Source: Schizochytrium sp. TIO01
Taxonomy: Eukaryota; Protista; Bigyra: Labyrinthulomycetes
NCBI GenBank assembly: GCA_004764695.1
Contig: SMSO01000031.1
Location: 968,436 to 1,032,435, forward strand
Direction of reading: 5' to 3'
DNA: 64,000 bases
Each line of letters begins with the position of its first letter. Within the stretch, counting starts at the first letter, position 1. This document shows, in pieces, positions 6,446-42,299 of this stretch. Under the pieces are notes generated by a model. It worked only from the letters and a program-made list of their open reading frames with translations, did no database searches and was not told the origin of the DNA. A program made the position numbers and the translations under genes.

Positions 6446-7126
6446 TAGTCTAGAGTAGTTGGGCACAATCTGAATGATTGCGAATGCCAAGGGCGACGCA
6501 GATGAAAACTAGGCTCAAGACTAGTGTATACGACTTTGAACTACCTAACCGAACACGATGGCGTTATTTTGTTTGCTGTCACTAGTGCCAATACTTTCAT
6601 AGCTCAATTATACGACTATGCAGATATTGTAGAGGTTCAATTTCTATGATAGGCATCGTGACTTTTGAACTGGAAAAAATAGTGCAGCATAGGAAATCTA
6701 TCTACTTGGAATACACCAATCGCCATCCTGCCAATTATAACACGGACTGCGCATGCTTCACATTAGGTTACCTGAAGGCTGATATTTAGTCAAGAGTAGT
6801 TGGGCACAATCTGAATGATTGCGAATGCCAAGGGCGACGCAGATGAAAACTAGGCTCAAGACTAGTGTATACGACTTTGAACTACCTAACCGAACACGAT
6901 GGCGTTATTTTGTTTGCTGTCACTAGTGCCAATACTTTCATAGCTCAATTATACGACTATGCAGATATTGTAGAGGTTCAATTTCTATGATAGGCATCGT
7001 GACTTTTGAACTGGAAAAAATAGTGCAGCACAGGAAATCTATCTACTTGGAATACACCAATCGCCATCCTGCCAATTCTAACACGTACTGCGCATGCTTC
7101 ACATTAGGTTACCTGAAGGCTGATAT
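6446..7126. repeat. Tandem duplication, 2 x 341 bp
   Basis: 6446-6786 and 6787-7126 align at offset 341 (tagtc.agagtagttgggcac ... cctgaaggctgatat) with about 4 substitutions by eye. Confidence 0.93.
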
Positions 7127-8835: not shown

Positions 8836-11496
8836 ATGGATCAGATCTCCACAGCCTCGGTCCTCGCGACAGTAAACCGTCTCATTGCTGAAGCCAAAAA
8901 TGGTCAGCCTGGAGCCCGCAAGACTCTTCTCAGCGGTGCTGGAGCTTTTCTGCTCGTGCTCTGGATGGCGTTCTCAGTCTTCCAGCACCGCCGTCAGAAT
9001 ATTGCTGACAAGAAAGCGCGCGCAGAAACTCGTCGCAAAAACGAAGAGGCTCAGAAATCCATCAAAGAAAAGCTCAAGTTACCCGTGCGTCCAGGCAAAG
9101 GCGACTGGAAGTTTATGACTGGCAAGCCGAGCGTTGGTGAGCTCGAGATTTTGGGATGCGGTATTGGTCGTGCCACATGGCTCCCAACGGAGGAGGATTC
9201 CTCTAAAAGCTTTCCTTTTGATCGTGAAAAGAATGCAAACGCTAACGATCAGGTCTTTCGTGATCTCCAGCTTAGCAGAGACAACAGTGGCGGATCCACT
9301 GGCGTTCAGACCGCTGTTGAGGCTGAAGAGGGCAACTCTGAAGCCGAAAAGGCTGCCACCACCGCCGCTCGAGGATCTGTATTCTATTCTAGACTTCAAA
9401 CAGAAGAGGGATGGTGGGCTGGAGATTATGGAGGTCCCATGTTCCTTTTGCCTGGCCTTGTGATTGCATGCTACACAACTAACGTAGACCTCGGAGTCGC
9501 TCGTAAAGCTGCAATCTTACGGTACATAATGAACCATCAACAAGCAGTAGATGGAGGCTGGGGTATGCACATTGAGGGCCACAGCACTGTATTCGGCAGC
9601 GTTCTTAACTACACAGCAGCACGCCTCGTTGGTCTTAAGCGTGACGATCCTCGGGCGAAGCGTGCTGTAGAGTTTATCAAGTCTCATGGTGGGGCTGTTG
9701 CGGCTCCTCAATGGGGCAAGTTCTGGTTGGCCACCCTCGGAGCGTATGATTGGGCAGGTGTCAACCCAGTACCCCCAGAACTTTGGCTTTTGCCTTACTG
9801 GTTTCCATTCCACCCTGGCCGGATGTGGTGCCATTGCAGAATGGTGTATCTTCCCATGAGCGCTCTGTTTGGATCTCGCTGGGTTTACGAAAAAGCTGAA
9901 GACGACCCTATTGTGGCAGAACTCCGTGAAGAGCTCTACGCCACAAAGTACTCGGAAATCAACTGGGGGTCCTTTGGAGTGCGTGAGTGCATTGCCCCGA
10001 CTGATCTTTACAACCCACAGAGCTGGATCATGACCGCTGCAAACCATGTATTGCACAACACACTTGAGAACCCGATCGTGAGGGCCATTTTCCACTATCC
10101 CCTCAATGCTCTCCGTAAGCGTGGTGTCAAGTTTGCGTATGACTATGTGCATGCAGAGGATGTCCACACGAACTGGATTGACATTGGACCTGTGAACAAG
10201 GCGTTTCACATCACTGCCAACTACGCTGCTTTTGGCGCCGACTCCCCTAACTTCCTTCGCCACGTCGCACGTATTGATGACTACCTTTGGCTTGCCGAGG
10301 ACGGCCTCAAGATGCAAGGTTACAATGGATCCATGTTCTGGGACACCTGCTTTGCAACTCATGCTCTTGCGAACGCTGTCGTTGCATCTAAGCTTAAGAA
10401 CGACCAAACAGTGATTAGTGATGACGACCGTGAGCATATGTACCGCTGTCTGGTCAATGCCTCCAAGTTTGTGGATGACATGCAGGTTCGTGAGGACGTG
10501 TGGGAGCGCCACAATTACTTCCGTGACAAGTCTTGCGGTGGATGGCCTTTCAGCTCTCGTGACCACGGTTGGCCTATCTCTGACTGCACAGCTGAGGGTC
10601 TCCGCGCTGCACTCCTCCTGAGTACTTTTCCGGACTTCAAGGACGACAAAAACTTGCACCACATCCCCCAGGAGCGTATCGAGCAGGCTGCCACCATTAT
10701 TATCGAATTGCAAAACACTTCAACAGATCAGGGATGGGCTTCGTACGAGCTTAACCGTGGCTTTGACTGGTACGAACTCCTTAACCCGGCCCAAGTCTTT
10801 GGAGATATCATGATCGATTATTCCTATGTTGAGTGCAGTTCCGCTTCTGTCCAGGCCCTCTGCGAGTTTGCCAAGCGTTTTCCAGATTCCAAGTATGCCG
10901 AGGCTGCTCTAGAATCAGCCGCGAAGGGTGTTGATTTCATTATCAGCAAGCAGCGCCCCACCGGCGCCTGGTATGGATCCTGGGCTGTCTGCTTTACCTA
11001 TGGAGCCTGGTTTGGTGTCGAGGGCCTGGTTTGCGCTCTTGATACACTTGGTGACCGCCTTTCTGCAAAGACTCGCGACGCTGCTAAGAAGACTCTTGTC
11101 AAGGGCTGCGACTACTTGCTCTCTATGCAGGACCCGAATGATGGTGGTTGGGGCGAATCTGTCAAGGCATGTGCTGTAAAGGAATGGGTTCCTGCTGATT
11201 GCAGCCAGGTTGTTAACACTGCTTGGTCCCTTTTGGCTCTCCTTCGCGCCACTGAGTACCTCAGTAAGGTTGATGCAGACAGCACTGATTTTGTCGATAA
11301 GCTCAAGGTTGCGTCTGACCGTGCCAGCAAGTTCTTGCGCCAGCGTCAGCTTCCTGATGGTGACTGGGCCCAAGAGGGCATTTCTGGTGTGTTTAACAAG
11401 TCTTGTTCCATCACCTATACTGCGTACCGCAACGTTTTCCCCATTTGGGCACTCTCTCGCTACGCGATTGTGAACATTGAAGCACAGAAGAAGTAA
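8836..11496 (+). CDS. CAS1: 2,3-oxidosqualene cyclase, cycloartenol synthase type
   Basis: GDYGGPMFL, MWCHCRMVYLPM, catalytic SDCTAE and QW repeats (QQAVDGGW, QRPTGAW, QDPNDGGW, QLPDGDW). Product-determining residues match cycloartenol synthases: MQGYNGS (Tyr), DHGWPISDCTAE (His, Ile). First ATG is at 8836; the track starts at an upstream GTG. Confidence 0.93.
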   Translation: MDQISTASVLATVNRLIAEAKNGQPGARKTLLSGAGAFLLVLWMAFSVFQHRRQNIADKKARAETRRKNEEAQKSIKEKLKLPVRPGKGDWKFMTGKPSVGELEILGCGIGRATWLPTEEDSSKSFPFDREKNANANDQVFRDLQLSRDNSGGSTGVQTAVEAEEGNSEAEKAATTAARGSVFYSRLQTEEGWWAGDYGGPMFLLPGLVIACYTTNVDLGVARKAAILRYIMNHQQAVDGGWGMHIEGHSTVFGSVLNYTAARLVGLKRDDPRAKRAVEFIKSHGGAVAAPQWGKFWLATLGAYDWAGVNPVPPELWLLPYWFPFHPGRMWCHCRMVYLPMSALFGSRWVYEKAEDDPIVAELREELYATKYSEINWGSFGVRECIAPTDLYNPQSWIMTAANHVLHNTLENPIVRAIFHYPLNALRKRGVKFAYDYVHAEDVHTNWIDIGPVNKAFHITANYAAFGADSPNFLRHVARIDDYLWLAEDGLKMQGYNGSMFWDTCFATHALANAVVASKLKNDQTVISDDDREHMYRCLVNASKFVDDMQVREDVWERHNYFRDKSCGGWPFSSRDHGWPISDCTAEGLRAALLLSTFPDFKDDKNLHHIPQERIEQAATIIIELQNTSTDQGWASYELNRGFDWYELLNPAQVFGDIMIDYSYVECSSASVQALCEFAKRFPDSKYAEAALESAAKGVDFIISKQRPTGAWYGSWAVCFTYGAWFGVEGLVCALDTLGDRLSAKTRDAAKKTLVKGCDYLLSMQDPNDGGWGESVKACAVKEWVPADCSQVVNTAWSLLALLRATEYLSKVDADSTDFVDKLKVASDRASKFLRQRQLPDGDWAQEGISGVFNKSCSITYTAYRNVFPIWALSRYAIVNIEAQKK

Positions 11497-15982: not shown

Positions 15983-18859
15983 CTAAGCAAGATCCATGCT
16001 AATGTTCTTGGTGAGAGGTGCAGGTGTAGATTCAACATCCTCAATAGACACCTCTGCTGCATCATCAGCCACAATCTCGTCCTCTAAATCGTCCTCGTCA
16101 TCGAATGTGACCACCCGGCTCTGAGAGGTACCATTGCGAGTAGTGGGGTTCGCCATCGTGCGAGTGTTGCGTGTGAGCATATGGTTATCCGAAGTGAGGT
16201 TTGAAGCTTCATTTGTGCGGGTACCACCCGTCTTTCGAGCAGTCGACGTAGGTTCAGGGTTCGATGTCTGCCTAGATCCACTACCCAATTTCTGTTTCAC
16301 CACACGTGAAACACTCTGCAGCTCAGGAACAGTAACATAGTATATCTTTGGGCCGATGACAAGCATAATTAGTACCAATGATGTGAATACAAGGGTGGCA
16401 GACACTAAAAACGTCTGTGACTTGATTTCCATAGGGACACCAGCCACCAAAATCATAGTAAGGACAATTATAGACGTTGCCACATAGCTTGCAAACATAA
16501 TGCTCCGACTTTCCATGTACTTTGCATCACTATCACGACCTTGATAAGAAAGAAATGTTGTAAAGAGCAAGATCACGATTACATATGACACAGCGAAAAC
16601 AGGAAAAACCACATAGCCATTATGTATTTCCACTACACCGCTAGCCTCAGCAGCACGCAAAATGTCCCCTGCTCCAAAGTAAACGCAAATATTGGCACTA
16701 AAATCAACCGAATAACCAGGAATTTGATACAAATGCTTGTCGTTGCCAACAAAAGCCGCTTCAACGGCCTTAGGAGCATCCACGGCATACCAGATAGTAA
16801 TGATGAGCACCATGCCAAACATGATTAACGCAAGAACCTTAAACATGTACTGAGCGGTAACAGAGATCCGCTTCATTGTAGAATTATTCCAAATCCTCCA
16901 AATACGGTACACCTTGACAGTGAGTGCGCCAACGAGAAGCGTAATACTCAACGCAAGATGAATTACCCGAGTTCTGCACTTATTTGTTCTGTTGGGACCT
17001 AGAAAAGACATCGCAGCAATGTTGCACCAAATACCCGCAAAACACATAACCACAAGAAATTCTCGTTGCCCTGCTTTTATTGCAACGTTTGAGTAATGTC
17101 TCAGAACAACAAAGAGGAATACATAGCAGACAATTCCTCCAATGCTTGTCAAGCTTATAATAACTTTGCCCGTAATTGAGTTGTATGGGACATACGGACA
17201 TTCTAATCTCGAAGTCGTGGGTAACTCCAGTTGTACTACCGAGTTATCACATCCACAAGGAATATCAGGATCCATGCATGCTCTACCTTCACGATCAGAC
17301 CAATAAAAGGTAACTCTTCGCCAGTCCCCATCGCACTCGTGTGCCCATCCTTGTACAAAATCGTCTATGGTGCAAGTTGTTAAGTCTTGACCGAAATTTG
17401 TATAGTTGACGAAGCTTCCAGTTTTCTCATCAAGAGGGTATAAGTTATGTAATGTCATGTCAGTCTCCTCAGAGTGGGTATGTGTTCTATCGTTATCCTC
17501 ATATTCTACGTGTGCTTGTACTAGAGTCATTTCATATTCAGCTTGACCATTTTCATCAAAACTGAGACTTCCTCCGGGCAAAATACGATCTGTAAAAGTG
17601 GTGGCTTGCATGTAACTCCGCACAGATTTTCTGGTTGTTACACTAGCACTTTGCATTGACTCTATAAGAACTCTTGCACTTTCGTAAGCCAAAGCTGCGT
17701 ACCACTCTGCATCAAGTTGTTCGCTGGGCATACTAAACATTGCTGTTGATGAAGCAGACGCCCCCGAGCTCGCCAAAGTTGTTGCAATGGCGTCATCAAT
17801 CACCTGCAAGGAGTCTGCCCAAGCATAGGCCTCGTATAGTCTCCAACGCTGCGCCCAATCTCGCGACACCTTTGAATTTTGTGTTATACTCCACCATTGC
17901 GCTGCAATGAGACCATTTACATACTCGGGATGATCAAGAGCATTTACGTCCTCAATCTCTACTCCCCTGGCTCCAAAGCTGGCAAAGTCGAAAGTCATTG
18001 CTGTAGATGCTAATGTGTCGAGAAAAACACGAAATTCATTTGAGTGAGCATCTACAAGTAAAGCGTGGCAAGTGTTATCCTGATGGTCTGAAGTCTTATT
18101 CCACACACGCTCTAAGTCTGTCTCAAGATGCTGAAGAATGTCTGGATCTGAGTCATCCAGCGGGTATGGGAAATCAGACGCATAGTAAATTTGAAAGTAG
18201 TTTGGTTTTCGTAACGCATACGAGGCTATCTCTTGGCGAAATGCCTCCCCCTCCGAGGAGTTTTCCCATAGCAAGGCAATATTGCAAGGCTTCTGCAAGT
18301 GCCCTTCATCCATTAGGCTTTGCATTAAGTTGAGAATGGAATCAGTCATGCGCTTTACAGACGACAAAAGACCGAATGCCCAACGTCCATCGTTTTTTCC
18401 TTCACCAGGATTCGCGCTGCTTGTCTTGTATATACCTGCAGTCGCACTTCCAGCATTGATGTACGGTACCTGATGCTTATTTGCAATTTCTATTAGAGCA
18501 GCAACCTCAGCGGTGTCATAGCCTCCAAGTATAAAAACGTCTGGGTCGGAGACTAAGAGTGTTGTCAATTCTGTATCAAGTCTTGCAGCCCCAATAGATG
18601 CGCGAGACTCACTATCGAGAAGAACTAAATTGCTTGAGCTCAGGGTAATTTGTGAGCTTCCCCAGCTTACTTTGTTCCCAATCTCATCAAAGTACATGCC
18701 ATAACCATGTAGATAGTATTCCCCAATTCGTGCATTTTCTCCAGTTAGTGGTAGCACTTGTACTATGTGCAGAGCTGATGCTGTGTTAAGCAAGGCCACT
18801 GTCACAGCTGATATAGCTAGAAAAGCTGAACGCGCTGTATTGCAGGGACAAGACTTCAT
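15983..18859 (-). CDS. Class C (GABA-B/metabotropic glutamate-like) G-protein-coupled receptor
   Basis: Signal peptide, periplasmic-binding-protein-like Venus flytrap region (VLPLTGENARIG, ILGGYDT, IANKHQVPYIN, GGSLSFDENG), Cys-containing linker, then seven hydrophobic helices with 7tm_3 motifs (IKAGQREFL, LTVKVYRIWRIW, KYMESRSI, IGPKIY) and an S/T-rich tail. First ATG at 18859. Confidence 0.9.
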   Translation of the reverse strand: MKSCPCNTARSAFLAISAVTVALLNTASALHIVQVLPLTGENARIGEYYLHGYGMYFDEIGNKVSWGSSQITLSSSNLVLLDSESRASIGAARLDTELTTLLVSDPDVFILGGYDTAEVAALIEIANKHQVPYINAGSATAGIYKTSSANPGEGKNDGRWAFGLLSSVKRMTDSILNLMQSLMDEGHLQKPCNIALLWENSSEGEAFRQEIASYALRKPNYFQIYYASDFPYPLDDSDPDILQHLETDLERVWNKTSDHQDNTCHALLVDAHSNEFRVFLDTLASTAMTFDFASFGARGVEIEDVNALDHPEYVNGLIAAQWWSITQNSKVSRDWAQRWRLYEAYAWADSLQVIDDAIATTLASSGASASSTAMFSMPSEQLDAEWYAALAYESARVLIESMQSASVTTRKSVRSYMQATTFTDRILPGGSLSFDENGQAEYEMTLVQAHVEYEDNDRTHTHSEETDMTLHNLYPLDEKTGSFVNYTNFGQDLTTCTIDDFVQGWAHECDGDWRRVTFYWSDREGRACMDPDIPCGCDNSVVQLELPTTSRLECPYVPYNSITGKVIISLTSIGGIVCYVFLFVVLRHYSNVAIKAGQREFLVVMCFAGIWCNIAAMSFLGPNRTNKCRTRVIHLALSITLLVGALTVKVYRIWRIWNNSTMKRISVTAQYMFKVLALIMFGMVLIITIWYAVDAPKAVEAAFVGNDKHLYQIPGYSVDFSANICVYFGAGDILRAAEASGVVEIHNGYVVFPVFAVSYVIVILLFTTFLSYQGRDSDAKYMESRSIMFASYVATSIIVLTMILVAGVPMEIKSQTFLVSATLVFTSLVLIMLVIGPKIYYVTVPELQSVSRVVKQKLGSGSRQTSNPEPTSTARKTGGTRTNEASNLTSDNHMLTRNTRTMANPTTRNGTSQSRVVTFDDEDDLEDEIVADDAAEVSIEDVESTPAPLTKNISMDLA

Positions 18860-20501
18860 TCTTTGGGAGGCTGAAGACACTGCAATCTCCTCGTCCTCTT
18901 CAAGTCGACGTCGTTGCTTTCCTTTTACGGATTTGCTTGCCCTCCCACGCTCCAGGCTTGTGTTTGAACCAGGGTTTATGATCTTTTAGGTTCTGTACAT
19001 GTACCAGCTAGCATAGATTGGGTCAAATTCTAATGCACCCCGCACTGTGCCAGCTCTTTATGAACATCACACGTGCTATCCAGACGCAGAATGGAGGCTG
19101 AATCAAAGTACCTTTTCTACATCCCCTTACCATGGGCTCTCTCACAAGATGGCCTCATGATCCTTCAAATGAACTGGATTAAATTGCCATTTTTGCCAAA
19201 CTGAGGGTGGCCAAATGCACCTGAAAGTGTAATCTTTTCGAATTGTATTCATACTATTGACTATAATAACGCAATCAATCATAAAAACATTAGGGGGTCT
19301 GGCCAGGCTATGCGTGTGTGCTCCAAACTCCTGCAGGCGGCACAATTCTGCGTATGAAACGCCTAGCTGCTTGCAAAGGAGTTTGTCTCGTCCTTTCTCT
19401 ATCGCTACATTTTAGATTAGTTAGGAGTAGCTGGACACTACTAATACTACCTAAGAACACTGCGCCATGTCCGTCTCCAGGAGTGGGCCATCGTCAACAA
19501 TATCGCATGCCAATCGACCCTCGTGCTCTGCAGTAATAATTCTGTCACACCATCAAAATGAGGGATCCGAGTCGTGACCTACAATATTTGTCGTTAAGTT
19601 CTTTAAATCGCTTAAGAGTTCCGACAGCATTATTTCGTTGAGAGCTAAGTCACTAACGACCTCCAAATTGAACCCATACTAAAAAGGGAGTTTTAGGAGG
19701 AACTTAAGCTCACGCAAACCTATTCCCACCAGAACCTCCGCCAAACTCTTCAGCAACCTCGAAAGACTTCGACTATCTCCGTGTAGTTACTGACTTATGA
19801 GGCCTTTCAGCACTCTTCAAGAGATAACCCTCTGTGCTCAACCCCAATTCAGTACAAACTTGAGAGCGATACTAGCAAGCTCAGTACACGAACAAAGACC
19901 AAAGCCAAATTGAAGCACATGACCTTGACCTGCTGAAACTCTTCTACATGTTCATTCTTTAAATGGGAATATATCGACTCTGAAGACTTTGGTGCGGCAC
20001 AGGAATCGCATCTCGGCTTTGTAAAATATATGAAGTCCTCCATTTTGTATTCTCTAACAGGACGACCATCCTATTAGTACCTGATTAGCAACTTGCTATG
20101 CACCAATCTACAAATTTTGGAACAGAACAGTGAGTTTGGGGGGTAGAGTAGACTTAAGGGGAAAAGACTTCATGCATAAAGAAAGAAACCATGGGAAAGA
20201 ATGAAGTTAAGCATGCCTCAAAGGTCGCAGTTGAGAGTTGCGTTGTGCGAGAGTAAGCAAAGTCAAGGACAAAGGCAATCTGTGCTGGCAAGGACGCAAC
20301 GAGGAATCCAGAGCATTTGAGACACGTGTGCAGAATCTATGCAAGGACCTGGTTTGAGGTTCAAGATCCCTGGGTGAGTTCGAGTCGTTTAGTTGAAGCA
20401 ACTGGCGCAAGTCGTCGAGAGCGCAACAACGAGAGCCACAAGGCTTGCAGGACCGTCAAGAAGCAAAGATTCGGCATTATAGAGTCTCGAACTTATAGAA
20501 A

Positions 20502-25778: not shown

Positions 25779-26424
25779 TTTAAATGGGCTTATCCTTTTC
25801 TTTAATAGACTGGGTAATGTAATCAGGGTTTCTAAAGATCAGGGAGCGATCTTGGGAGATGAGCAATTCCTTCAGCTTGAGTATTTACCCTAGCTAAAGT
25901 ATTTTAAGGAGCAGTCTCTGACACCCTCTCACGAGTCACAAGTCAAAATGAGGTTGAATCTCTCAGCTCCAAGGTGTGTAAAGTTCAAAACAATCACTCA
26001 CTGTGTCTGAGAGTGCTTTTTATACCTCCTGTTCATGCGGATAGAATTGAACATCATGATTGATTTATTGATTGATTTACCTACTAGGTACTGGTAATAA
26101 CCTGTATAAAGAAATCAGGTAGCTGTACGGGTAATAGGGACCTACTACCATAGTAGTAAAATGCAATCTCCAATAACTGCAAAGCTGTATCTTCAGTCGA
26201 TCCACGCGCGATCAACGAAGTGAGGCGAAGACGGACGAAGGCTAGAGCACTGCCCTACGTACGAGCACTAGCGCGTTTTACAAGACCACTTGCGAGTCGC
26301 GCGGGGTTAGTACACGCCTCAGCTCCTGTCCAGCACAGCAAGCTCGCTCAACTTGAGAGCGGCGAAGCAGAGCACCGATATAGACTGTGAAAGCGAGCTT
26401 GCTTAAAGTAAGATCCGCAACAAA

Positions 26425-29400
26425 ATGGCCAAGGCTGAAAGTGTCGAGGCCATCAACAGCGACACTACGGACGTCGAGTAAGTTTGTAGCACCATATAGA
26501 GAACCCGGATCGAGGCATGCGTGCTTCATTATTTCCAAAGCAATTTTGTTAACTGAACTATTTCTTTCATGCGACAAGCACAGACTTTCGGGGAAGAATA
26601 TTAGTGACAAAGACGTTAAGGCAATTGCAAAAGCGCTCAAAGGCTGCAAGAGTCTAAGAAAAATCAAGTAAGTTTCATTGAAAAACAGCTGAAAGAAGAA
26701 AGAAGAAAGGACAGAGTTAGCGACAAAATAACTATTTAGAAGGAGAATTATCAAATATTTGATGCAAAATTAGAAAAACTTCCATACACGAAAACGATGT
26801 TATTTCCAATCATTCAGATAGATCATGTCAAGTCATGATCAATTGAACCAATGCCATTTCGTGGCATACGAGTGATCAACATGAACAGCAATTAACTGAC
26901 TTATGTCTAAACCACATACATAGTCTTTCGAGTAATGACATCGGTGATGAAGGCGTAATGGCCATCACCAGGAGCGTAAAGTGCTGCAAGAATCTTACCA
27001 GTTTACTGTACGTTTTACTGTGTACACGTGCACAGTTCTTGTATTGATAATTTTGTTGGGAAAAGAAGAAGTCGGAATTAAGTCCGCAAGATGTTATATT
27101 TTCCTCACCCAAATCTCGAACCACGCAATTACACAACATCAAAAATATCAGAATGATCGTTTTCAATGAAATTGATGCGAACAAATAACAAGGAACGATG
27201 CATGCAAAAGAACAGTTGTTTGAACACTATTCCCAGATTTTTATAAGCTTTCAACTACTGACATATATGTTGACAACGAATTTGGGCCATGCACACAGCC
27301 TTCAGAATAACAACATTGGTGATGAAGGTGCGGTGGCTCTCGCGAAGGCACTTGCGCAGAGTCCAAACCTGACCATATTGAGGTACGTTAGATGCATGCA
27401 AAAAGGCCACCGGTTAGCTTGCTGTGTTACACAATGACTGAATCAGAGCGGGAAGCAACTAGTTTTCCACTCTATTGAGCTCCGAACTTTGTGAAGGTCC
27501 AGAATATTTAGATCCATTCATAGGGAGTATATTATAATGAAACCGAATCACGATGTGAGGTGGAGTTGTGATATGGAGAGGCTCGCACACGTTCGCAATT
27601 GAGAAGAGTTGACTGACACACGTTTTTATATATTGACAACGGATTTGGGTCATTCACACAGTCTTCAGAATAACAACATTGGTGATGAAGGTGCGATGGC
27701 TCTCGCGAAGGCACTTGCGCAGTGTCCTAAACTGACCATTTTGGAGTACGTTAGATGCATGCAAAAATGCCACCGGTTAGCTTGCTGTGTTACACAATGA
27801 TTGAATTAGAGCGGGAAGCAACTTGTTTCCTGCTCTATTGAGCTCCGAACTTTGTGAAGGTGCAGAATATTTGGATCCATTCATAGGGAGTACATTATAA
27901 TGAAACCAAATCACGATGTGAGGTGGAATTGTGATATGGAGAGGCTCGCACACGTTCGCAATTGAGAAGAGTTGACTGACACACGTTTTTATATATTGAC
28001 AACGGATTTGGGTCATTCACACAGTCTTCAGAATAACAACATTGGTGATGAAGGTGCGATGGCTCTCGCGAAGGCACTTGAGCAGTGTCCTAAACTGACC
28101 ATTTTGGGGTACGTTAGATGCATGCAAAAAGACCACCGGTTAGCTTGCTGTGTTACACAATGATTGAATCAAAGCGGGAAGCAACTTGTCTCCTGCTCTA
28201 TTGAGCTCCGAATTTTGTGAAGGTGCAGAATATTTAGATCCATTCATAGGGAGTACATTATAATGAAACCAAATCACGATGTGAGGTGGAGTTGTGATAT
28301 GGAGAGGCTCACACACGTTCGCAATTGAGAAGAGTTGACTGACACACGTTTTTATATATTGACAACGGATTTGGACCATGCACACAGTCTTGCTAATAAC
28401 AAGATTGGTGATGAAGGTGCGGTGGCTCTCGCGAAGGCACTTGCGCAGTGTCCTAAACTGACCATTTTGGAGTACGTTAGATGCATGCAAAAATGCCACC
28501 GGTTAGCTTGCTGTGTTACACAATGATTGAATTAGAGCGGGAAGCAACTTGTTTCCTGCTCTATTGAGCTCCGAACTTTGTGAAGGTGCAGAATAATTGG
28601 ATCCATTCATAGGGAGTACATTATAATGAAACCGAATCACGATGTGAGGTGGAGTTGTGATATGGAGAGGCTCACACACATTGACTGACACACATTTTTA
28701 TATATTGACAACCAATTTGGACCATGCACGCAGTCTTGGTAATAACAAGATTGGTGATGAAGGTGCGATGGCTCTCGCGAAGGCACTTGCGCAGTGTCCA
28801 AACCTGACCATATTGAGGTACGTTAGATGCATGCAAAAATGCCACCGGTTAGCTTGCTGTGTTACACAATGACTGAATCAGAGCGGGAAGCAACTTGTTT
28901 CCTGTTCTATTGAGCTCCGAACTTTGTGAAGGTGCAGAATATTTGGATCTATTCATAGGGAGTACATTATAATGAAACCGAACCACGATGTGAGGTGGAG
29001 TTGTGATATGGAGAGGCTCACCCACGTTCGCAATTGAGAAGAGTTGACTGACACACGTTTTAATATATTCGTTGGGCCATGCACACAGTCTTGCTAATAA
29101 CAAGATTGGTGATGAAGGTGCGGTGGCTCTCGCGAAGGCACTTGAGCAGTGTACAAACCTGACCAATTTGTAGTACGTTTGATACAAGCGATAAGGCAAC
29201 CGGTTAGGTTGCTGTGTTATACAGTGATTGAATCACAGCGGGAACAACTAGTTTCCTGCTCTATTGAGCTCCGAATTTTGTGAAGGTGCAGAATATTTAG
29301 ATCCATTCATAGGGAGTACATTATAATGAAACCGAATCACGATGTGAGGTGGAGTTGTGATATGGAGAGGCTCACACACATTGACTGACACACATTTTTA

Positions 29401-32400
29401 TATATTGACAACCAATTTGGACCATGCACGCAGTCTTGGTAATAACAAGATTGGTGATGAAGGTGCGATGGCTCTCGCGAAGGCACTTGCGCAGTGTCCA
29501 AACCTGACCATATTGAGGTACGTTAGATGCATGCAAAAATGCCACCGGTTAGCTTGCTGTGTTACACAATGACTGAATCAGAGCGGGAAGCAACTTGTTT
29601 CCTGTTCTATTGAGCTCCGAACTTTGTGAAGGTGCAGAATATTTGGATCCATTCATAGGGAGTACATTATAATGAAACCGAACCACGATGTGAGGTGGAG
29701 TTGTGATATGGAGAGGCTCACCCACGTTCGCAATTGAGAAGAGTTGACTGACACACGTTTTAATATATTCGTTGGGCCATGCACACAGTCTTGCTAATAA
29801 CAAGATCGGTGATGAAGGTGCGGTGGCTCTCGCGAAGGCACTTGAGCAGTGTACAAACCTGACCAATTTGTAGTACGTTTGATACAAGCGATAAGGCAAC
29901 CGGTTAGGTTGCTGTGTTATACAGTGATTGAATCAAAGCGGGAACAACTAGTTTCCTGATCTATTCAGCTCCGAACTTTGTGAAGGTGCAGAATATTTGG
30001 ATCTATTCATAGGGAGTACATTATATATGAAACCGAACCACGATGTGAGGTGGAGTTGTGATATGGAGAGGCTCAGAACGTTCGCAATTGAGAAGAGTTG
30101 ACTGACACACGTTTTAATATATTTGTTGGGCCATGCACACAGTCTTGCTAATAACAAGATCGGTGATGAAGGTGCGATGGCTCTCGCGAAGGCACTTGCG
30201 CAGTGTACAAACCTGACCGATTTGTAGTACGTTTGATGCAAGCGAAAAGGCAACCGATTAACTTGCTGTGTTATAGAGCGATTGAACCAAAACGGGAAGC
30301 AACTAGTTTTCTACTGTATTGAGCTCCGAACTTTGTGAAGGTGCAGAATAATTGGATCCATTCATAGGGAGTACATTATAATGAAACCGAATCACGATGT
30401 GAGGCGGAGTAGTGATATTGAAAGGCTCACAAACGTTCACAATTGAGAAGAGTTGACTGACACAAACTTTTATATTTTGACAACGGATTTGGGCCATGCA
30501 CACAGTCTTGCTAATAACAACATTGATGATGAAGGTGCGATGGCTCTCGCGAAGGCACTTGCGCAGTGTCCTAACCTGACCATTTTGGGGTACGTTAGAT
30601 GCATGCAAAAATGCCACCGGTTAGCTTGCTGTGTTACACAATGATTGAATCAAAGCGGGAAGCAACTTGTTTCCTGCTCTATTGAGCTCCGAATTTTGTG
30701 AAGGTGCAGAATATTTGGATCCATTCATAGGGAGTACATTATAATGAAACCAAATCACGATGTGAGGTGGAGTTGTGATATGGAGAAGCTCACACACGTT
30801 CGCAATTGAGAAGAGTTGACTGACACACGTTTTTATATATTGACAACGGATTTGGACCATGCACACAGTCTTCAGGATAACCACATTGGTGATGAAGGTG
30901 CGATGGTTCTCGCGAAGGCACTTGCGCAGTGTCCAAACTTGACCATATTGAGGTACGTTAGATGCATGCAAAAATGCCACAGGTTAGCTTGCTGTGTTAC
31001 ACAATGATTGAATCAGAGCGGGAAGCAACTAGTTTTCTACTCTTTTGAGATCCGAACTTTGTGAAGGTGCAGAATATTTGGATCTATTCATAGGGAGTAC
31101 ATTATATATGAAACCGAACCACGATGTGAGGTGGAGTTGTGATATGGAGAGGCTCAGCACGTTCGCAATTGAGAAGAGTTGACTGACACACGTTTTAATA
31201 TATTTGTTGGGCCATGCACACAGTCTTGCTAATAACAAGATTGGTGATGAAGGTGCGGTGGCTCTCGCGAAGGCAATTGAGCAGTGTACAAACCTGACCG
31301 ATTTGTAGTACGTTTGATGCAAGCGAAAAGGCAACCGATGAACTTGCTGTGTTATAGAGCGATTGAACTAAAACGGGAAGCAACTAGTTTTCTACTGTAT
31401 TGAGCTCCGAACTTTGTGAAGGTGCAGAATATTTGGATCCATTCATAGGGAGTACATTATAATGAAACCGAACCACGATGTGAGGTGGAGTTGTGATGTG
31501 GAGAGGCTCAGCACGTTCACAATTGAGAAGAGTTGACTGACACACGTTTTTATATATACGTTGGGCCGCACACAGTCTTCAGAATAACAACACTGGTGAT
31601 GAAGGTGCGATGGATCTCGCGAAGGCACTTGCGCAGTGTCCTAACCTGACCATTTTGGGGTACGTTAGATGCATGCAAAAATGCCACCGGTTAGCTTGCT
31701 GTGTTACACAATGATTGAATCAAAGCGGGAAGCAACTGGTTTCCTGATCTATTGAGCTCCGGACTTTGTGAAGGTGCAGAATATTTGGATCCATTCATAG
31801 GGAGTACATTATAATGAAACCGAACCACGATGTGAGGTGGAGTTGTGATGTGGAGAGGCTCAGCACGTTCGCAATTGAGAAGAGTTGACTGACACACGTT
31901 TTAATATATTTGTTGGGCCATGCACACAGTCTTGCTAATAACAAGATCGGTGATGAAGGTGCGGTGGCTCTCGCGAAGGCACTTGAGCAGTGTACAAACC
32001 TGACCGATTTGTAGTACGTTTGATGCAGGCGAAAAAGCAACCGATTAACTTGCTGTGTTATAGAGCGATTGAACCAAAACGAGAAGCAACTATACTGTAT
32101 TGAGCTCCGAACTTTGTGAAGGTGCAGAATATTTGGATCCATTCATAGGGAGTACATTATAATGAAACCGAACCACAATGTGAGGTGGAGTTGTGATGTG
32201 GAGAGGCTCAGAACGTTCGCAATTGAGAAGAGTTGACTGACACAAACTTTTATATTTTGACAACGGATTTGGGCCATGCACACAGTCTTGCTAATAACAA
32301 CATTGGTGATGAAGGTGCGATGGCTCTCGCGAAGGCAATTGAGCAGTGTACAAACCTGACCGATTTGTAGTACGTTTGATGCAAGCGAAAAGGCAACCGA

Positions 32401-35400
32401 TTAACTTGCTGTGTTATAGAGCGATTGAACTTAAACGGGAAGCAACTAGTTTTCTACTGTATTGAGCTCCGAACTTTGTGAAGGTGCAGAATATTTGGAT
32501 CTATTCATAGGGAGTACATTATAATGAAACCGAACCACGATGTGAGGTGGAGTTGTGATGTGGAGAGGCTCAGCACGTTCGCAATTGAGAAGAGTTGACT
32601 GACACACGTTTTAATATATTCGTTGGGCCATGCACACAGTCTTGCTAATAACAAGATCGGTGATGAAGGTGCGGTGGCTCTCGCGAAGGCACTTGAGCAG
32701 TGTACAAACCTGACCGATTTGTAGTACGTTTGATGCAGGCGAAAAAGCAACCGATTAACTTGCTGTGTTATAGAGCGATTGAACCAAAACGAGAAGCAAC
32801 TATACTGTATTGAGCTCCGAACTTTGTGAAGGTACAGAATATTTGGATCCATTCATAGGGAGTACATTATAATGAAACCGAATCACGATGCGAGGCGGAG
32901 TTGTGATATGGAGAGGCTCACACACGTTCGCAATTGAGAAGAGTTGACTGACACACGTTTTTATATTTTGACAACGGATTTGGGCCATGCACACAGTCTT
33001 GCTAATAACAACATTGGTGATGAAGGTGCGATGGCTCTCGCGAAGGCACTTGCGCAGTGTCCAAACCTGACCATATTGAGGTACGTTAGATGCATGCAAA
33101 AATGCCACCGGTTAGCTTGCTGTGTTACACAATGATTGAATTAGAGCGGGAAGCAACTTGTTTCCTGCTCTATTGAGCTCCGAACTTTGTGAAGGTGCAG
33201 AATATTTTGACCCATTCGTAGGGAGTATATTATAATGAAACCGAACCACGATGTGAGGTGGAGTTGTGATATGGAGAGGCTCACAACGTTCGCAATTGAG
33301 AAGAGTTGACTGACACACGTTTTTATATATTGACAACGGATTTGGGCCATGCATACAGTCTTCAGAATAACCACATTGGTGATGAAGGCACTTTGTTACT
33401 TACGAAGGCGCTTCAGAGCTGCAAATGGCTTGCAAAATTGGAGTAAGTATTTTTGGTATAGTTGTGAGAATAATATTTGATTTCGTAGAACCAAAAGAAG
33501 AGAGGGCAAGGATAAAGACAAGTTCCTGTATCGAATGAACTTTGAATTGATCTCCCGAATGACCAGGTGCTCAAATGCCAAAAGGTGCTCATAGAGATTA
33601 AATCATGCGAATCAATTTGTATGGATTAGCGAAGAGAGATTATGCGATTGACGTAGATAGCAGGCGACTGACGTATATCTGGAGCATGAACGATCATTAA
33701 CTGACGAACTTGTGAACAATGAACGAGCGGTATGTGTACAGCCTTATGGGTAACAAGATTTGTGCTGAAGTCGCCATGAGTCTTGCGGAGAAGTTGCACA
33801 TATCATGCCCTTCCGTGCGAATCTCGTAAGTTCTATTTATTGTATTATCTCTATCGCTCTGTGCCTCGTCTCGCTATTGTCATGTTTGCCCTGTGAAACT
33901 CAGAGTCTCGAAGATTATTTAATAGACTATCAAACAATGGTTTCTAACAGATGATCTGATTATTGTATTGGTGTATTGTAGGTGTGACTTTGGTGAAAAT
34001 TTAATCCCCAAGGAGTTGATGGCGAAGGTGGACAGTCTTGAAGATAAACTGTATATTTCAGACAGTTCTTCCTGTGTCTCAAAACTGGAGAGGTCAGCTG
34101 CAACTTCTTTGGAGCCCAGGAACAAGAAAAGTGTAGTCAACGCTGTGCTAAAGCCTTGTGATCTAGGTGAAGGTGCTGTGTAAGTTCATTGTGTAGTTGG
34201 ATGAGGTTTAGGCGATTCAATCAACCATGTCTTATTTAATTGTTCTGAACATGGGTTCCTAACTTTCTCGTTTGCTGTTGCTGCCATCGGTCACTCCTGC
34301 AGAAAAAGACTGCTTGATACAACCAGCGTAACTTTTGCTAATGTTGCACAGCTTGCCAAGGAAGCCTCAGAGTTGCGGATGAAACTTTATAAGCCTGAAG
34401 AAGTCTTTCTGCGTGCTGAAATTGAGCTGCTTGAGGAGTTCTCAGCACATGGAATCCAAAAGTACGTTGGACAGGTGAAGCTACGGAGCACTTTCGGTGA
34501 CATTATAAGTCTCAAAGCACGTTTAGAGGACCTCCAAAGGAAAATTCGCGAAAGCCCTCCGAACAGTTACTATGATCCAACCAATGGTCGAATTACAGAG
34601 TTAGGGCCAATGAAATTGCGAAAAACTTCTGGGGATGTAAAGAGTGCAAAGGATTCTTTAGAGGCTATTCAAAGCAAGAATCACAACAGCTCTCAAAAGG
34701 GTTTACACTGTCTTGTTGAGGAGCGAGACAAAGTTAGGAATTCCTTGCGATCGCTCGTCCAACACCTGTACCCTTGGGTGCGTGAAGGCCTATATGAAAT
34801 TGATGAGGCTGTTGCCCACACATTTAAAGTGAAACTTGGTAACAGGTTAACTCATTTGGGCATAAATGATTCACCAGTCGTTCAGCACGAATGCACTGAT
34901 GATTTCCAGCAGTTTCAATTGCTTGCTACTCAGGCTGGCAAGTGTGTTGAAAGCTATAAATTGAGGCTGGATCAAGAGGTTCGACTTTCCGAACAGCGAA
35001 GCAAGCAAGCAGTTGAAAGAGTCAAGGAGCGGATAACTCAGTTGGGGCTTGGTGATGCATTTTCCGTTGCCTATTTTCAGCCTGAAAAGGCAGAAGAATT
35101 GAAACCTGAGTTGTTGGAACTTCAGAATGCTCTCAAAGAAGAAATACAGGTTTTAAGAGTAGATACATCGAATGAAGAAGTGCCAAAGATTCTGCAGGCT
35201 ATCAGCTCAGCTCTTCATCGTATAGAAAGCACGGTCGGAAACGCAACGTTTGATGAAACAACCTGTACAATTTCACCGAAAGAAATCGATGAGATACATG
35301 AGTACGTGCGTTTGGGCTCAAATCGACCGAATGTCTCAAGCATCAAGCAGATATACGAGAATCTTGAGAAATCGCGAAATGCAAAGGATGGTTTACGCAG

Positions 35401-37126
35401 AGCCAAAGAGAGTCTCAACGCGTCGTTTACAGAAAAGAAAAAAGCTTTCTACAAAGGTGAAATTGAAGATCACGAACGTATTCTTGCCGAAGGTGATCCT
35501 GTCGAGCTAAGTAAAGTTCTTCGTCATAAGCTTGCTGAATTTCTGCAACATGCCCAAGAACATTATCCAGAGTTACTTAAGGATAAAGTTTGTTTAGAAA
35601 ATCTTCGTTTAACTTCTGAAGGTCTTCTGGATGTGGCGCGCTCAGATCTCTTGTTGGCAAATATCAGCATTCAGGACTTTCAGCCTGTTGGAGAGCCACT
35701 TGCTTCCAGGGGAGGCAAGACAGTACAAATGGTGCTGGACAACGCTGCAAAAATTCTGGTCTTAAAGCAATTTCAGCTCGCTGATTCAAGTCAGTCCAAA
35801 ACGTTTTACAGACAAGTCGCTAATTTGGGAAACGTGGTGTCTCAACACGTGATCCATCTCATTGGTGCTTTTGTAGACTCATCGCATGGTTTATCACGTG
35901 GGTGTATTCTCATGCCTTTCTACGAGCAAGGCGACTTAGCCAAATGGATTAAGGATCACCCTCACCAAAATAAAGCCATGCGCGATCGTCTTGCCACAGG
36001 TTTACTTATTGGGGTTGCAGACTTGCATGCTCATGGTATCGTACACTGTGACATCAAGCCTGAGAACATCTTCCTTACAAGTAACGAAACACCATTGCTA
36101 GGTGATTTCGATGGTATCAAACAAGCGAATTGCACCGCAACCAACACGTCTCTTCAAGCCACACCTCGGTACATTGCCCCGGAGTTGCGGAGTGGACCTG
36201 TAAGGAAGTTCGAAACAGCAATGGATATGTTCTCTGTGGGTATAGTTTTAAAGGAGCTGTATCCTGAGCCAACTGATGCAATGCAGGCGCTTATTGATGC
36301 TCTAACATCACCAGACCCTGGTCAACGTCCAAGCGCTCGCGAAGTACTTCAGCATGAAGCCTTTGGAGTTCCTGATGTTCCTGTAGGGCAATGTCTTGTG
36401 TGCCGGGAGAGAAAGCCGCTTTCCGAAGGCACAAGCTGTGAGAGGGGGCACTTTATTTGCCGGGATTGTGTTGCAGATTCAGTAGAAGCGGCTGCAAAAC
36501 CACAAACTTATGTAACTGTGGACGCCGATGGAACGATGAAGTGTATGAATCGTGACTGTGATGGAAGAATCTCGGGCCAAGAGATTACTCGTGTTGCGCC
36601 AACTGCATTGAAGCACCTTTTGCAGATTGCACAAATGACAGCAGAAATAAAAGCAACATCCCAGAACAAAGAGAAGATTGAGAAGCTCACGTCAGAATTT
36701 CTAAAGAAAGGTGGACTGGACAGTGATGTAGAGAGGCATCTAAAACATATTCAAGAGAAAATCCTGAATACATGTTGTCCAAACTGTGGTGCCTGCTTTG
36801 ATGGATTTGATGGATGTTGTGCCTTATACTGTGAGAGGGCTGGATGCGGACATCGTTTTTGCGCTTGGTGTCTGGAGTATAGTTCAGAGGATAGTGATGC
36901 TTGTCATAGGCACGTGAGAACTTGCCCCAAAAAAGTTGGGGAAAACCCGTATTTTCCTGATACATATGAGAAAGTATGCGGGGCGTGGCAACTGCTGCGC
37001 GCGGAGCGTTTACGCAAGTACTGGAAAGAAAATATCCTCAACAGAGATCTTCCCGATGCTCTACGAAGGCAACTCAAACCTCTGCTAACACCTGATATTG
37101 TAGGCTCTAGGTTTAGATTCAGATAA
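26425..37126 (+). CDS. 24-exon LRR(21 x 28 aa)-helical region-protein kinase-RING1-Rcat-like protein, ~1612 aa
   Basis: Manual GT-AG splicing gives one continuous frame. Exon 1: 26425-26477. 84-nt exons start at 26584, 26924, 27299, 27662, 28025, 28388, 28734, 29089, 29434, 29789, 30143, 30506, 30869, 31224, 31576, 31930, 32286, 32640, 32997, 33359, 33742. Then 33982-34179 and 34303-37126. All introns are phase 2 with GTAAGT/GTACGT donors and YAG acceptors; the LRR introns mostly carry an ACTGAC branch motif. Sum 4839 nt = 1613 codons including stop. LRR consensus xLxNNxIGDEGAxALAKALxQCxNLTxL (RI/NLR-like). Kinase motifs VLK, HCDIKPEN, DFDG, YIAPE. C-terminal C3HC4 RING and CPNC..DGCCALYC..CGHRFCAWC..H..C. 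Confidence 0.88.
27255..33390 (+). repeat. Tandem array of ~17 near-identical exon+intron units (345-363 bp)
   Basis: Each unit is an 84-nt LRR exon plus a 261-279-nt intron. The introns are as similar to each other as the exons are (e.g. gagctccgaactttgtgaaggtgcagaata, gatgtgaggtggagttgtgat, gagttgactgacacac recur in essentially every unit). Confidence 0.97.
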
Positions 37127-41342: not shown

Positions 41343-42299
41343 ATGCTTGCTCGCGGGGGAATTTTGGCGGGCCGCGAGGCCGTTTGGAGTGGTGCTGCGA
41401 AGCGTCTTTTGACAACAAGTCTCGAGCGTGAGCAAATGGCTAAGATTGCAGAGACACTCAGACCTCACGGAGACGATGGAAGCCGTGTAGAGCTCCACAA
41501 AGACAAGAGCGGACGTCAAGCATGGCTAACTTTGGTGAACCCTAGCAAGAAAAACGCCCTGTCAGGGAAAATGATGGCTGAGCTGCATGATGCCGTCAAG
41601 AAGCTCCGCGAAAGCCCTGAGTTCCAACCTACCACGACACTTTTCGTGCAAGGTGCTGAAAAGTACTTTTGCTCAGGCGCAGATCTCGGAGCTCTCACGG
41701 AATCCTTTTCTAGGCAAGACGGGCTTGATATGTCGTGGCTTATGCAGCGTACTTTGCACGATTTGAGGGCGCTCCCTCAAATCTCAGTATCGGTTGTTGA
41801 CGGAGGAGCTATGGGTGGTGGCACAGAATTTGCATTGTCCACAGACTTCCGCGTTTTCCAACATGATGCTACTTTTCGCATGGTGCATACCACACTGGGT
41901 TTGGTCACTGGCTGGGGTGGAGGCACTCGTCTCGTAAACTTGGTAGGCCGCACTAAGGCCCTCCAGGTGCTCTGTGGTGCCCAGAAGCTCAACGCCCACG
42001 AATTGTTGGACCTTGGCATCGCAAATTGCGTCTCGGATCCCAAGGAAACAGCTGAAGAGGCTGCATTGAGGTTCATGAAACCCTTTTATGAATGCAAGTA
42101 CCCAGAGGCGGTACGTGGCTCTAAGAGCTTGATTGGGTTTGCTCACGACCATGGCAATATCGAGGAAAGCCTTGAAAACGAACGTGAGGTGTTCTCAAGG
42201 GCTTGGCAAGGTGCAGAAAACAAGGATGCGCTTGCTGGAGTGGCTCGTGCTCGTGAAGCACGCCGTGCAAAGGCCCACCATGCTAAAAAGGCTATGTAA
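41343..42299 (+). CDS. ECHDC1: Crotonase-fold enzyme, ethylmalonyl-CoA decarboxylase (ECHDC1)-like
   Basis: NPSKKNALSGKMM, FCSGADL, GGAMGGGTEF, FRMVHTTLGLVTGWGGGTRL (His rather than the hydratase PE motif, as in ECHDC1). Basic N-terminus resembling a mitochondrial presequence. First ATG at 41343. Confidence 0.8.
   Translation: MLARGGILAGREAVWSGAAKRLLTTSLEREQMAKIAETLRPHGDDGSRVELHKDKSGRQAWLTLVNPSKKNALSGKMMAELHDAVKKLRESPEFQPTTTLFVQGAEKYFCSGADLGALTESFSRQDGLDMSWLMQRTLHDLRALPQISVSVVDGGAMGGGTEFALSTDFRVFQHDATFRMVHTTLGLVTGWGGGTRLVNLVGRTKALQVLCGAQKLNAHELLDLGIANCVSDPKETAEEAALRFMKPFYECKYPEAVRGSKSLIGFAHDHGNIEESLENEREVFSRAWQGAENKDALAGVARAREARRAKAHHAKKAM

What the first reader, a model, noticed from the sequence alone, without database searches (positions are those of the whole stretch)
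27383..33358. Introns are homogenised and units are mosaics of a few haplotype blocks (ongoing unequal crossing-over / gene conversion)
Seen: two intron 5' types (gtacgttagatgcatgcaaaa after AG/GA/GG-ending exons; gtacgtttgat(a/g)ca(a/g)gcga after TA-ending exons). At least three intron 3' types (long ..ttgacaacggatttgg..; short ..atatatt(c/t)gttgggcc..; and a form 17 nt shorter before exons 28734 and 29434). These assort in different combinations. Exons themselves look chimeric: 32286 has an AAC-ATT..ATG 5' half with an ATT-GAG..GAT-TTG-TA 3' half like 31224. Inference: recent, repeated recombination among units; direct-repeat introns give ~270 bp of homology for frame-preserving rearrangement, possibly even mitotically.
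Basis: partly seen in the sequence, partly recalled or inferred. Interest (0 to 1): 0.78.

Follow-up and report, generated by a model that had tools for sequence, protein, structure and literature searches.

The report
Shuffled LRR exons in protist kinase
A gene of a likely thraustochytrid protist carries 17 near-identical exon-plus-intron copies, each coding one leucine-rich repeat, that are patchworks of one another and differ most at the predicted binding face, so it is likely a fast-evolving sensor of a kind already known from brown algae and fungi.

Summary
27264-33388 is a tandem array of 17 units (84-nt phase-2 exon plus 261-279-nt intron). It sits inside a spliced 24-exon gene for a 1,612-aa protein: ribonuclease-inhibitor-type LRRs, helical region, kinase, RING and RING2-like zinc modules. 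The closest named relatives are from Hondaea (thraustochytrid). The units do not fit one tree: PHI p=5e-5, at least 12 crossovers per unit length, AU p<1e-5, 0 of 300 tree simulations match. It is not a local assembly chimera: contigs from other studies show 8 of the window's 10 unit-junction classes and none of the 10 absent ones. That same match gives no sign of exon skipping or of reshuffling in culture, so 'possibly mitotic' remains untested. Best reading: a candidate recognition receptor diversified by unequal crossover or conversion, likely with diversifying selection. It works like Ectocarpus ROCO LRR exons and Podospora HNWD repeats but belongs to neither family. Its function is inferred, not shown.

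The parts
26425..37126 (+). 24-exon gene, 1,612 aa: about 21 LRR exons, helical region, protein kinase, RING and RING2-like zinc modules; all 23 introns phase 2
   Evidence: Reading frame open with 0 internal stops. Splice joints seen in contigs of other runs. The start codon is inferred.
26425..27007 (+). Exons 1-3 (26425-26477, 26584-26667, 26924-27007): leader and two unique 84-nt LRR exons
   Evidence: GT..AG joints in runs X4, X11 and X18
27264..33388 (+). Tandem array of 17 exon+intron units (period about 345-363), mosaic
27299..33080 (+). 17 repeated 84-nt exons starting at 27299, 27662, 28025, 28388, 28734, 29089, 29434, 29789, 30143, 30506, 30869, 31224, 31576, 31930, 32286, 32640, 32997. 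Each codes one 28-aa RI-type LRR; the intron cuts the beta-strand codon x5.
   Evidence: ribonuclease inhibitor 1dfj_I E=9.2e-8 for one exon
28600..29935 (+). Very recent two-unit (700-bp) duplication: 28600-29235 vs 29300-29935, 636 bp with 2 mismatches
   Evidence: exact runs of 350, 156 and 128 bp
32286..32369 (+). Chimeric exon (unit 15): 5' part identical to unit 17, 3' part identical to unit 12
33359..34179 (+). Terminal LRR exons 33359-33442 (first 30 nt array-like) and 33742-33825, and linker exon 33982-34179
   Evidence: One 3.2-kb contig in each of runs X9 and X11 splices these to the last exon with 0 differences in the laid parts
34303..37126 (+). Large last exon: helical region, kinase, RING and RING2-like modules
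35714..36262 (+). Protein kinase domain (HCD..KPEN and DFD motifs present)
   Evidence: Pfam PF00069 E=3.4e-30; kinase fold Z about 25
36392..36930 (+). RING-like module, long helix, then a RING2/Rcat-like module (approximate bounds)
   Evidence: Conserved Cys/His columns. Weak matches to RNF4 RING (E=1.4e-6) and parkin chains 2lwr, 9c5e, 2m48 (E=0.005-0.03). IBR_2 E=0.13, below cutoff.

Best explanation
The array is the repeat-coding part of an expressed LRR-kinase-RING gene whose 17 exon-plus-intron units have repeatedly exchanged sequence, and it likely serves as the variable ligand-binding end of a cytosolic recognition receptor under diversifying selection. Shown: the units are mosaic, spliced in frame and joined to the kinase exon, and diversity peaks at strand positions x3, x5 and x7 of the LxxLxLxxN motif. 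Inferred: misaligned pairing between the ~92%-identical direct repeats gives unequal crossovers and conversion tracts. Every intron is phase 2 and cuts the beta-strand, so a crossover in an intron would re-pair the two halves of one binding strand, and a crossover in the conserved helix-coding mid-exon would re-order neighbouring strands, always in frame. Selection likely keeps alternative residues on the concave face while exchange erodes differences elsewhere. Ligand binding would switch on the kinase and the RING/RING2-like module (phosphorylation and possibly ubiquitin transfer); neither the ligand nor this output was tested.
For: Mosaicism. Expression and gene model. Focus of diversity: nucleotide diversity is 0.301 at the 14 exon bases of the five concave x codons, 0.082 in introns and 0.054 at other exon bases, and no 14-nt intron window reaches it (max 0.203). 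Segregating sites are 9 of 14 vs 74 of 280 in introns (Fisher p=0.004) and 15 of 70 elsewhere in the exon (p=0.003). The excess remains within the 10 type-A units alone: 0.248 vs 0.051, best intron window 0.167. Intron diversity is highest next to the variable codons (0.12-0.13) and lowest mid-intron (0.04-0.06), as expected when exchange erodes differences except near selected sites (inference). 5 left and 6 right half-strands give 12 strand types among 17 junctions. Related LRR exons in runs X8, X18, X20 and X22 lay well mid-exon and diverge at the same strand positions (loose ends; these ends are divergent by selection of the table, so this is supporting only). The kinase-RING family is expanded in Hondaea with interchangeable repeat modules: LRR, ankyrin, TPR and a C-terminal TIR domain, plus WD40 in a protein labelled Durusdinium. 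Neighbouring repeats there are up to 82% (LRR, P0014) and 76% (ankyrin, P0003) identical.
Against: No ligand, infection response or phenotype was tested. Columns are linked by descent and recombination, so the p-values are optimistic. piN/piS at the concave codons (0.31/0.17) rests on 3.1 synonymous sites and is not a usable test. Helix-side codons show piN 0.053 vs piS 0.059, so little purifying selection is visible. Strand position x2 is invariant and x8 nearly so, while helix-side positions 12, 19 and 22 vary. Several concave alleles differ by 2-3 bases, which import from a diverged paralog would also give; paralogs exist (run X8 record 20, about 85% identical). The concave-face assignment rests on the established LRR motif; no model of the array was made. 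The RING2-like assignment is weak and the single-sequence model failed (pLDDT 39).
Confidence: 0.62

Rival explanations
1. Neutral repeat turnover. The array grew and recombines simply because tandem direct repeats do. The excess at the strand codons comes from a few conversion tracts imported from diverged paralogs, not from selection on binding specificity, and the protein has a fixed signalling or scaffolding role.
For: Helix-side piN about equals piS. Paralogs share the type-B intron start (run X8 loose end). The absence of exon indels against about 8 intron indel events (my count by eye) is not significant (about 0.12 by length). An earlier AI note read a fungal LRR array this way (e1-9985374).
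Against: The excess persists inside one haplotype class and exceeds every intron window. It falls on both sides of the intron, at the strand positions reported under positive selection in brown-algal LRR exons (PMC3341825, fig. 4 text). All 17 exons and splice sites are intact and spliced. A single burst of copying without later exchange is rejected.
Confidence: 0.22
2. High-frequency reshuffling within a clonal culture (mitotic unequal sister exchange, possibly stress-induced) gives each population a repertoire of receptors.
For: The substrate is ideal: 17 direct repeats, exact tracts of 118-350 bp, always in frame. Podospora hnwd repeats rearrange during vegetative growth (PMC2873952 passages).
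Against: Runs from at least four studies show only junctions present in the window: 8 of 10 present classes and 0 of 10 absent classes. Long contigs match particular units: the X4 contig has 10 of 10 differences of the unit-16 intron, and X18 contigs fit the unit-9 intron and the units 12-13-14 path within one letter. The tables were cut and such contigs drop rare variants, so low-frequency events are not excluded.
Confidence: 0.1
3. Alternative splicing (exon skipping, as proposed for brown-algal ROCO genes) is the main diversifier, and the genomic mosaic is incidental.
For: All array exons are symmetric phase 2, so any skip keeps the frame. Proposed for Ectocarpus ROCO (PMC11378527 section 15).
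Against: Exon 3 joins only unit 1 and the terminal LRR exon is preceded only by a unit-17-type end in the joints shown. No junction class absent from the genome order was seen. If all 20 classes were equally available, 8 of 8 resolved classes falling among the 10 genomic ones has probability about 4e-4 (my arithmetic).
Confidence: 0.04
4. The mosaic is an assembly chimera of similar units or of two haplotypes.
For: The array was not spanned by any single read here. The 700-bp near-exact duplication could be a collapse or expansion error, and the unit 6 to 7 junction was not among the rows shown.
Against: Unit-specific junctions, private variants and a 323-bp contig across the mosaic unit-16 intron recur in independent runs. 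The 17-nt-deletion contig has depth 318 against about 190-220 for five other contigs in DNA run X8, a weak hint of two copies. The differences between units (8-10%) far exceed read error.
Confidence: 0.02

Closest known systems
Ectocarpus / brown-algal ROCO genes with one LRR per exon (Zambounis et al. 2012, PMC3341825; Teng et al. 2024, PMC11378527)
   Same: Stramenopile. One LRR per symmetric phase-2 exon, up to tens of repeats, intragenic recombination, diversity on the concave face, candidate immune receptor with no ligand known.
   Different: Here the exons are 84 nt and RI-type, not 72 nt. There is no Roc-COR match; the tail is kinase plus RING/RING2-like. The whole exon+intron unit is a tidy head-to-tail array with ~92%-identical introns, and I saw no inverted copies. 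Zambounis et al. report no shuffled or inactivated exons in Ectocarpus LRR-kinase loci (part 4), whereas this kinase locus is mosaic.
Podospora anserina HNWD/NWD NLRs (het-d, het-e, het-r) (Paoletti et al. 2007, PMC1805685; Chevanne et al. 2010, PMC2873952)
   Same: Repeats of high internal conservation exchanged within and probably between loci, unequal crossover and conversion, a few interface codons per repeat hypervariable.
   Different: WD40 repeats with a NACHT domain there; exon-encoded LRRs with co-homogenised introns and a kinase-RING output here. Rearrangement during vegetative growth is shown there and not here.
Ribonuclease-inhibitor-type LRR proteins (RI, NOD2, NLRP5, NLRX1)
   Same: 28-residue RI-type repeat; best named PDB matches include RI and NLR LRRs. 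One-repeat 84-nt exons in vertebrate NLR genes are recalled, not checked here.
   Different: No NACHT or NB-ARC match in the last exon. The repeats here are young and about 80% identical to their neighbours.
Hondaea fermentalgiana kinase-RING proteins (P0003, P0006-P0014, P0017, P0057; annotated only as 'protein kinase, putative' or by their repeats)
   Same: Same kinase, RING and RING2-like core (39-44% identity over the 565-aa core) with N-terminal repeat modules.
   Different: Their exon structure could not be read. This gene has the longest LRR array seen among the hits.

Membership tests
Brown-algal LRR-ROCO exon-shuffling genes | Roc GTPase plus COR domain | tested here: not met
   Pfam finds only kinase families in the 940-aa last exon; the rest of the gene is LRR exons and a 66-aa linker
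Brown-algal LRR-ROCO exon-shuffling genes | One LRR per symmetric phase-2 exon | tested here: met
   (84 nt rather than 72 nt)
Brown-algal LRR-ROCO exon-shuffling genes | Recombination among repeat exons | tested here: met
Brown-algal LRR-ROCO exon-shuffling genes | Diversifying selection on concave-face residues | tested here: inconclusive
   3.7-fold excess over introns, but no recombination-aware omega test and too few synonymous sites
Brown-algal LRR-ROCO exon-shuffling genes | Inverted or inactivated LRR exons inside introns | tested here: not met
   No inverted repeat pairs within the array; all 17 exons intact with canonical splice sites
NLR (STAND) receptors incl. fungal HNWD | NACHT or NB-ARC nucleotide-binding domain | tested here: not met
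   No such Pfam match at E<=0.01 or in the 565-aa core at E<=1
NLR (STAND) receptors incl. fungal HNWD | Repeats with high internal conservation under concerted evolution | tested here: met
NLR (STAND) receptors incl. fungal HNWD | Repeat rearrangement during vegetative (mitotic) growth | not testable with these tools
   Only collapsed contigs were available
RI-type leucine-rich repeat | 28-29-residue repeat with LxxLxLxxN core, similar to ribonuclease inhibitor | tested here: met
   (1dfj_I E=9.2e-8)
RBR E3 ligases (parkin, Ariadne) | RING1-IBR-RING2 triad | tested here: inconclusive
   Only two Cys/His clusters are visible. Weak parkin matches, IBR_2 below cutoff. Fold searches were filled by the kinase and the isolated model failed.
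RBR E3 ligases (parkin, Ariadne) | Catalytic cysteine forming a ubiquitin thioester | not testable with these tools
   A GCC motif is conserved at the expected place (the position of parkin's catalytic Cys is recalled), activity untested
Thraustochytrid repeat-kinase-RING family (unnamed; Hondaea hits) | Kinase followed by RING-like and RING2-like modules, with an N-terminal repeat module | tested here: met

The most novel reading that the evidence does not exclude
Thraustochytrids have an undescribed family of modular immune receptors (swappable LRR, ankyrin or TPR sensor, kinase, RING/RING2-like ligase). In this member the exon-intron array acts as a frame-safe recombination cassette that re-pairs half-strands of the binding face within growing clonal populations. 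That would give a unicellular eukaryote a heritable, VLR-like repertoire against its persistent giant viruses, in a culturable host where the idea that Zambounis et al. proposed for brown algae could be tested directly.
Probability: 0.1. Interest if true: 0.85.

Novelty: new variant of a known kind. Interest (0 to 1): 0.48.

Why it matters
Somatic or mitotic LRR exon shuffling was proposed for brown algae in 2012, and Teng et al. 2024 say recombinant loci have not been reported (PMC11378527, section 15). This locus is a compact 6-kb array with identifiable unit haplotypes in an organism sequenced in at least nine studies, so one long-read amplicon experiment can measure the rearrangement rate. 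It also points to an apparently undescribed thraustochytrid kinase-RING family with interchangeable repeat modules, a candidate receptor class in a lineage where persistent virus infection is reported (PMC12606086 and 10.64898/2026.07.28.741200, search listings only). If only evolutionary-time recombination holds, it is a clean further example of a known process.

Tried and rejected
No whole genome is held, so paralogs could not be counted or their arrays read. No run is on record as RNA; spliced contigs nevertheless show that X4, X9, X11 and X18 hold processed transcripts. Reads were laid on two stretches holding one unit each, so unit order beyond 2-3 units and array length were not tested; the tables hid 10 and 3 loose ends and 163 and 60 pieces. 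Only L002 matched into the RING part, and its listed frames show no obvious LRR array. No full-length annotated copy of this protein was found among near or longer hits. The taxon therefore rests on best named hits: cycloartenol synthase 80% identical to Hondaea and the kinase family. The single-sequence model of the RING region failed (pLDDT 39). Both fold searches on the 565-aa model returned only kinases, which says nothing about the zinc modules. One search was in the wrong frame and one search's reading-frame check had a one-base slip, corrected. Similarity barely decays with distance along the array (Spearman 0.17, p=0.049), so a purely neighbour-to-neighbour duplication order is not supported. 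Only 4 of 136 pairs pass Bonferroni in the GENECONV-like run test (18 at p<0.01; 3,000 permutations). Literature searches listed no paper on a thraustochytrid LRR exon array or on this kinase family; the library lacks most subscription papers and I read no supplements. Earlier scan notes held nothing on this genome or sequence.
Full report
WHAT IS THERE. The stretch is a head-to-tail array of 17.2 copies at 27264-33388. Each unit is an 84-nt exon plus a 261-279-nt intron. Each exon codes one 28-residue leucine-rich repeat of the ribonuclease-inhibitor type (1dfj_I, E=9.2e-8). The array lies in a 24-exon gene at 26425-37126 that reads 1,612 aa with no internal stop and has only phase-2 introns. 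Contigs from public runs confirm the model. The first three joints occur in X4, X11 and X18. One 3.2-kb contig in each of X9 and X11 runs from the end of a unit-17-type exon through exons 33359, 33742 and 33982 into the last exon. The last exon holds a protein kinase (Pfam E=3.4e-30; kinase fold) followed by two Cys/His clusters with weak matches to RNF4 RING and to parkin chains. The best named relatives of this gene and of a neighbouring cycloartenol synthase (80%) are from Hondaea fermentalgiana, so the host is likely a thraustochytrid.

THE OBSERVATION. Every stated detail checks out. There are two intron 5' types tied to the exon end and three 3' types, and all 6 of 6 combinations are present. 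Exon 32286 is identical to unit 17 in its first 40 nt and to unit 12 in its last 44 nt. Array introns are 91.7% identical, slightly more than the exons (89.8%), while the six outside introns are unrelated apart from the last 35 nt of intron 3.

The units do not fit a tree. 865 of 2278 informative pairs are incompatible, from 8.5% at <=10 nt to 50% at >200 nt, PHI p=5e-5. 568 of 1653 biallelic pairs show four gametes and Rm=12, with 4 intervals inside the exon and 8 in the intron or at its border. Trees of the two halves reject each other (AU 4.6e-6, 8.1e-7), and none of 300 simulations without recombination reproduces the distance trend. The run-length test is weaker: 18 of 136 pairs at p<0.01, 4 after Bonferroni.

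IS IT REAL AND IS IT RECENT. The window has 10 of 20 possible junction classes between exon ends and exon starts. In the rows shown for runs X4, X9, X11 and X18 (four studies) I could resolve 8 classes. All are among the window's 10 and none is among the absent 10; two further rows were ambiguous, and the unit 6 to 7 class was not shown. A 323-bp contig in X4 carries 10 differences from unit 1, as unit 16 does, including its private ones. X18 contigs fit the unit-9 intron and the units 12-13-14 path within one letter. So the mosaic is not a local assembly artefact, though nothing here spans the array and the tables were cut.

For timing, run X22, a related strain, differs by about 5% in unique flanking sequence (25 letters over 33742-34179; 14 over 33413-33697). 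Inside the array a two-unit block is duplicated with 2 mismatches in 636 bp, and non-adjacent units share exact tracts of 118-212 bp. Mean intron divergence (8%) is thus older than that strain split and some exchanges are much younger, so exchange has continued in evolutionary time (inference). X22 also shows a strand variant and an 85-nt intron deletion absent from the window. The same junction data argue against frequent exon skipping or frequent reshuffling in culture, but these contigs drop rare variants, so mitotic shuffling is untested rather than refuted.

WHERE THE DIVERSITY SITS. In the LxxLxLxxN motif the exposed strand positions x2, x3, x5, x7 and x8 line the concave binding face (established LRR knowledge; I made no model of the array). 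Here x3 is I/D/N, x5 is Y/S/G/D and x7 is A/Q/G, while x2 is invariant and x8 nearly so. Diversity is 0.301 at those codons, 0.082 in introns and 0.054 elsewhere in the exon, and no 14-nt intron window reaches it. Segregating sites are 9 of 14 vs 74 of 280 (p=0.004). The excess holds inside the 10 type-A units (0.248 vs 0.051). Intron diversity is highest beside these codons and lowest mid-intron.

The intron cuts codon x5, so each strand is built from the 3' end of one exon and the 5' end of the next; 5 left and 6 right halves give 12 strand types among 17. Caveats: sites are linked, so the p-values are optimistic; synonymous sites are too few for dN/dS; helix-side piN (0.053) about equals piS (0.059); and multi-base alleles could be imports from paralogs, which exist (X8 record 20; other LRR exon types in X20).

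HOW IT MOST LIKELY WORKS. Shown: mosaic units, in-frame splicing, link to the kinase exon, and a focus of diversity on the strand. Inferred: misaligned pairing of the direct repeats gives unequal crossovers and conversions (one haplotype cannot separate them) that change repeat number and re-pair half-strands without breaking the frame. Selection likely keeps alternative binding residues, and the LRR arc likely gates a kinase and possible ubiquitin-ligase output in recognition of non-self. The family context fits: the same kinase-RING core carries LRR, ankyrin, TPR or TIR modules in Hondaea and WD40 in a protein labelled Durusdinium, with neighbouring repeats up to 82% identical. I put recombination at about 0.95 and the whole receptor-under-selection reading at 0.62. 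The rivals are neutral turnover with paralog import (0.22), within-culture shuffling as the main process (0.10), alternative splicing (0.04) and assembly chimera (0.02).

COMPARISON. It works like the Ectocarpus ROCO genes (PMC3341825, parts 1, 3, 4 and 5 of 7 read; PMC11378527, abstract and section 15 read) and like Podospora HNWD repeats (PMC1805685, abstract; PMC2873952, passages). It is a member of neither, having no Roc-COR or NACHT match. It differs in the RI-type 84-nt exon, the co-homogenised introns in a regular array, and the kinase-RING output; Zambounis et al. found no shuffling at Ectocarpus LRR-kinase loci. Nine literature searches listed nothing on this locus or family; no supplements were read, and genome-paper supplements might list the family. 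Earlier AI notes describe similar arrays in a feather star, a fungus and a protist, which suggests this architecture recurs; I did not check them.

VERDICT. A real and well-supported mosaic repeat array, a new variant of a known kind. Interest 0.48. The boldest open reading, a recombination cassette active in clonal populations, has probability about 0.1 and can be tested with one long-read experiment.

Noticed in passing
window 33443-33741, in run X22: One low-depth contig (4.5) leaves the window at 33697 into an acceptor-like site and an LRR-like exon start. Another (depth 31) enters at 33701 from unrelated sequence, and no 33442-33742 joint is listed. This hints that the related strain has one extra LRR exon here; a single low-depth contig may be an error.
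   Followed up: no
window 33826-33981, in run X22: This intron is retained in the main contig (depth 68) while the next intron is spliced (depth 60); possible intron retention or an internal transcript start in that strain.
   Followed up: no
window 26346-27389, in run X8: A paralog about 85% identical over exons 1-3 and an LRR exon (3,306-bp contig); other contigs carry the type-B intron start after different strand codons. These are possible donors for inter-locus conversion.
   Followed up: partly
P0003, P0006, P0008, P0014, P0018, P0057, P0058, L002:1978-3324: The kinase-RING-RING2-like core occurs with ankyrin, LRR, TPR, WD40, TIR or RanBP1-type modules in Hondaea and in proteins labelled Durusdinium and Sphaeroforma, and in a metagenome contig; no paper on it was listed in my searches.
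   Followed up: partly
window 6446-7126: Exact-like 341-bp tandem duplication (98% matches) in apparently non-coding DNA.
   Followed up: no
window 15983-18985 (-): Intronless class C (GABA-B-like) GPCR with a periplasmic-binding domain and 7tm_3.
   Followed up: no
window 8836-11496 (+) and 1581-2669 (-): Oxidosqualene cyclase (80% identical to Hondaea cycloartenol synthase) and a sterol-desaturase-like frame (my reading of its histidine motifs, not searched) lie within 7 kb of each other.
   Followed up: partly
window 41343-42299 (+): The enoyl-CoA-hydratase-like gene's cluster partner P0072 and the 93%-identical kinase P0001 both list a longest contig of 22,266 bases, suggesting conserved gene order in a related strain.
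   Followed up: partly
window 52083-54507 (-): ADAM/reprolysin-like metalloprotease with a disintegrin-like Cys-rich region, split over two frames (by eye).
   Followed up: no
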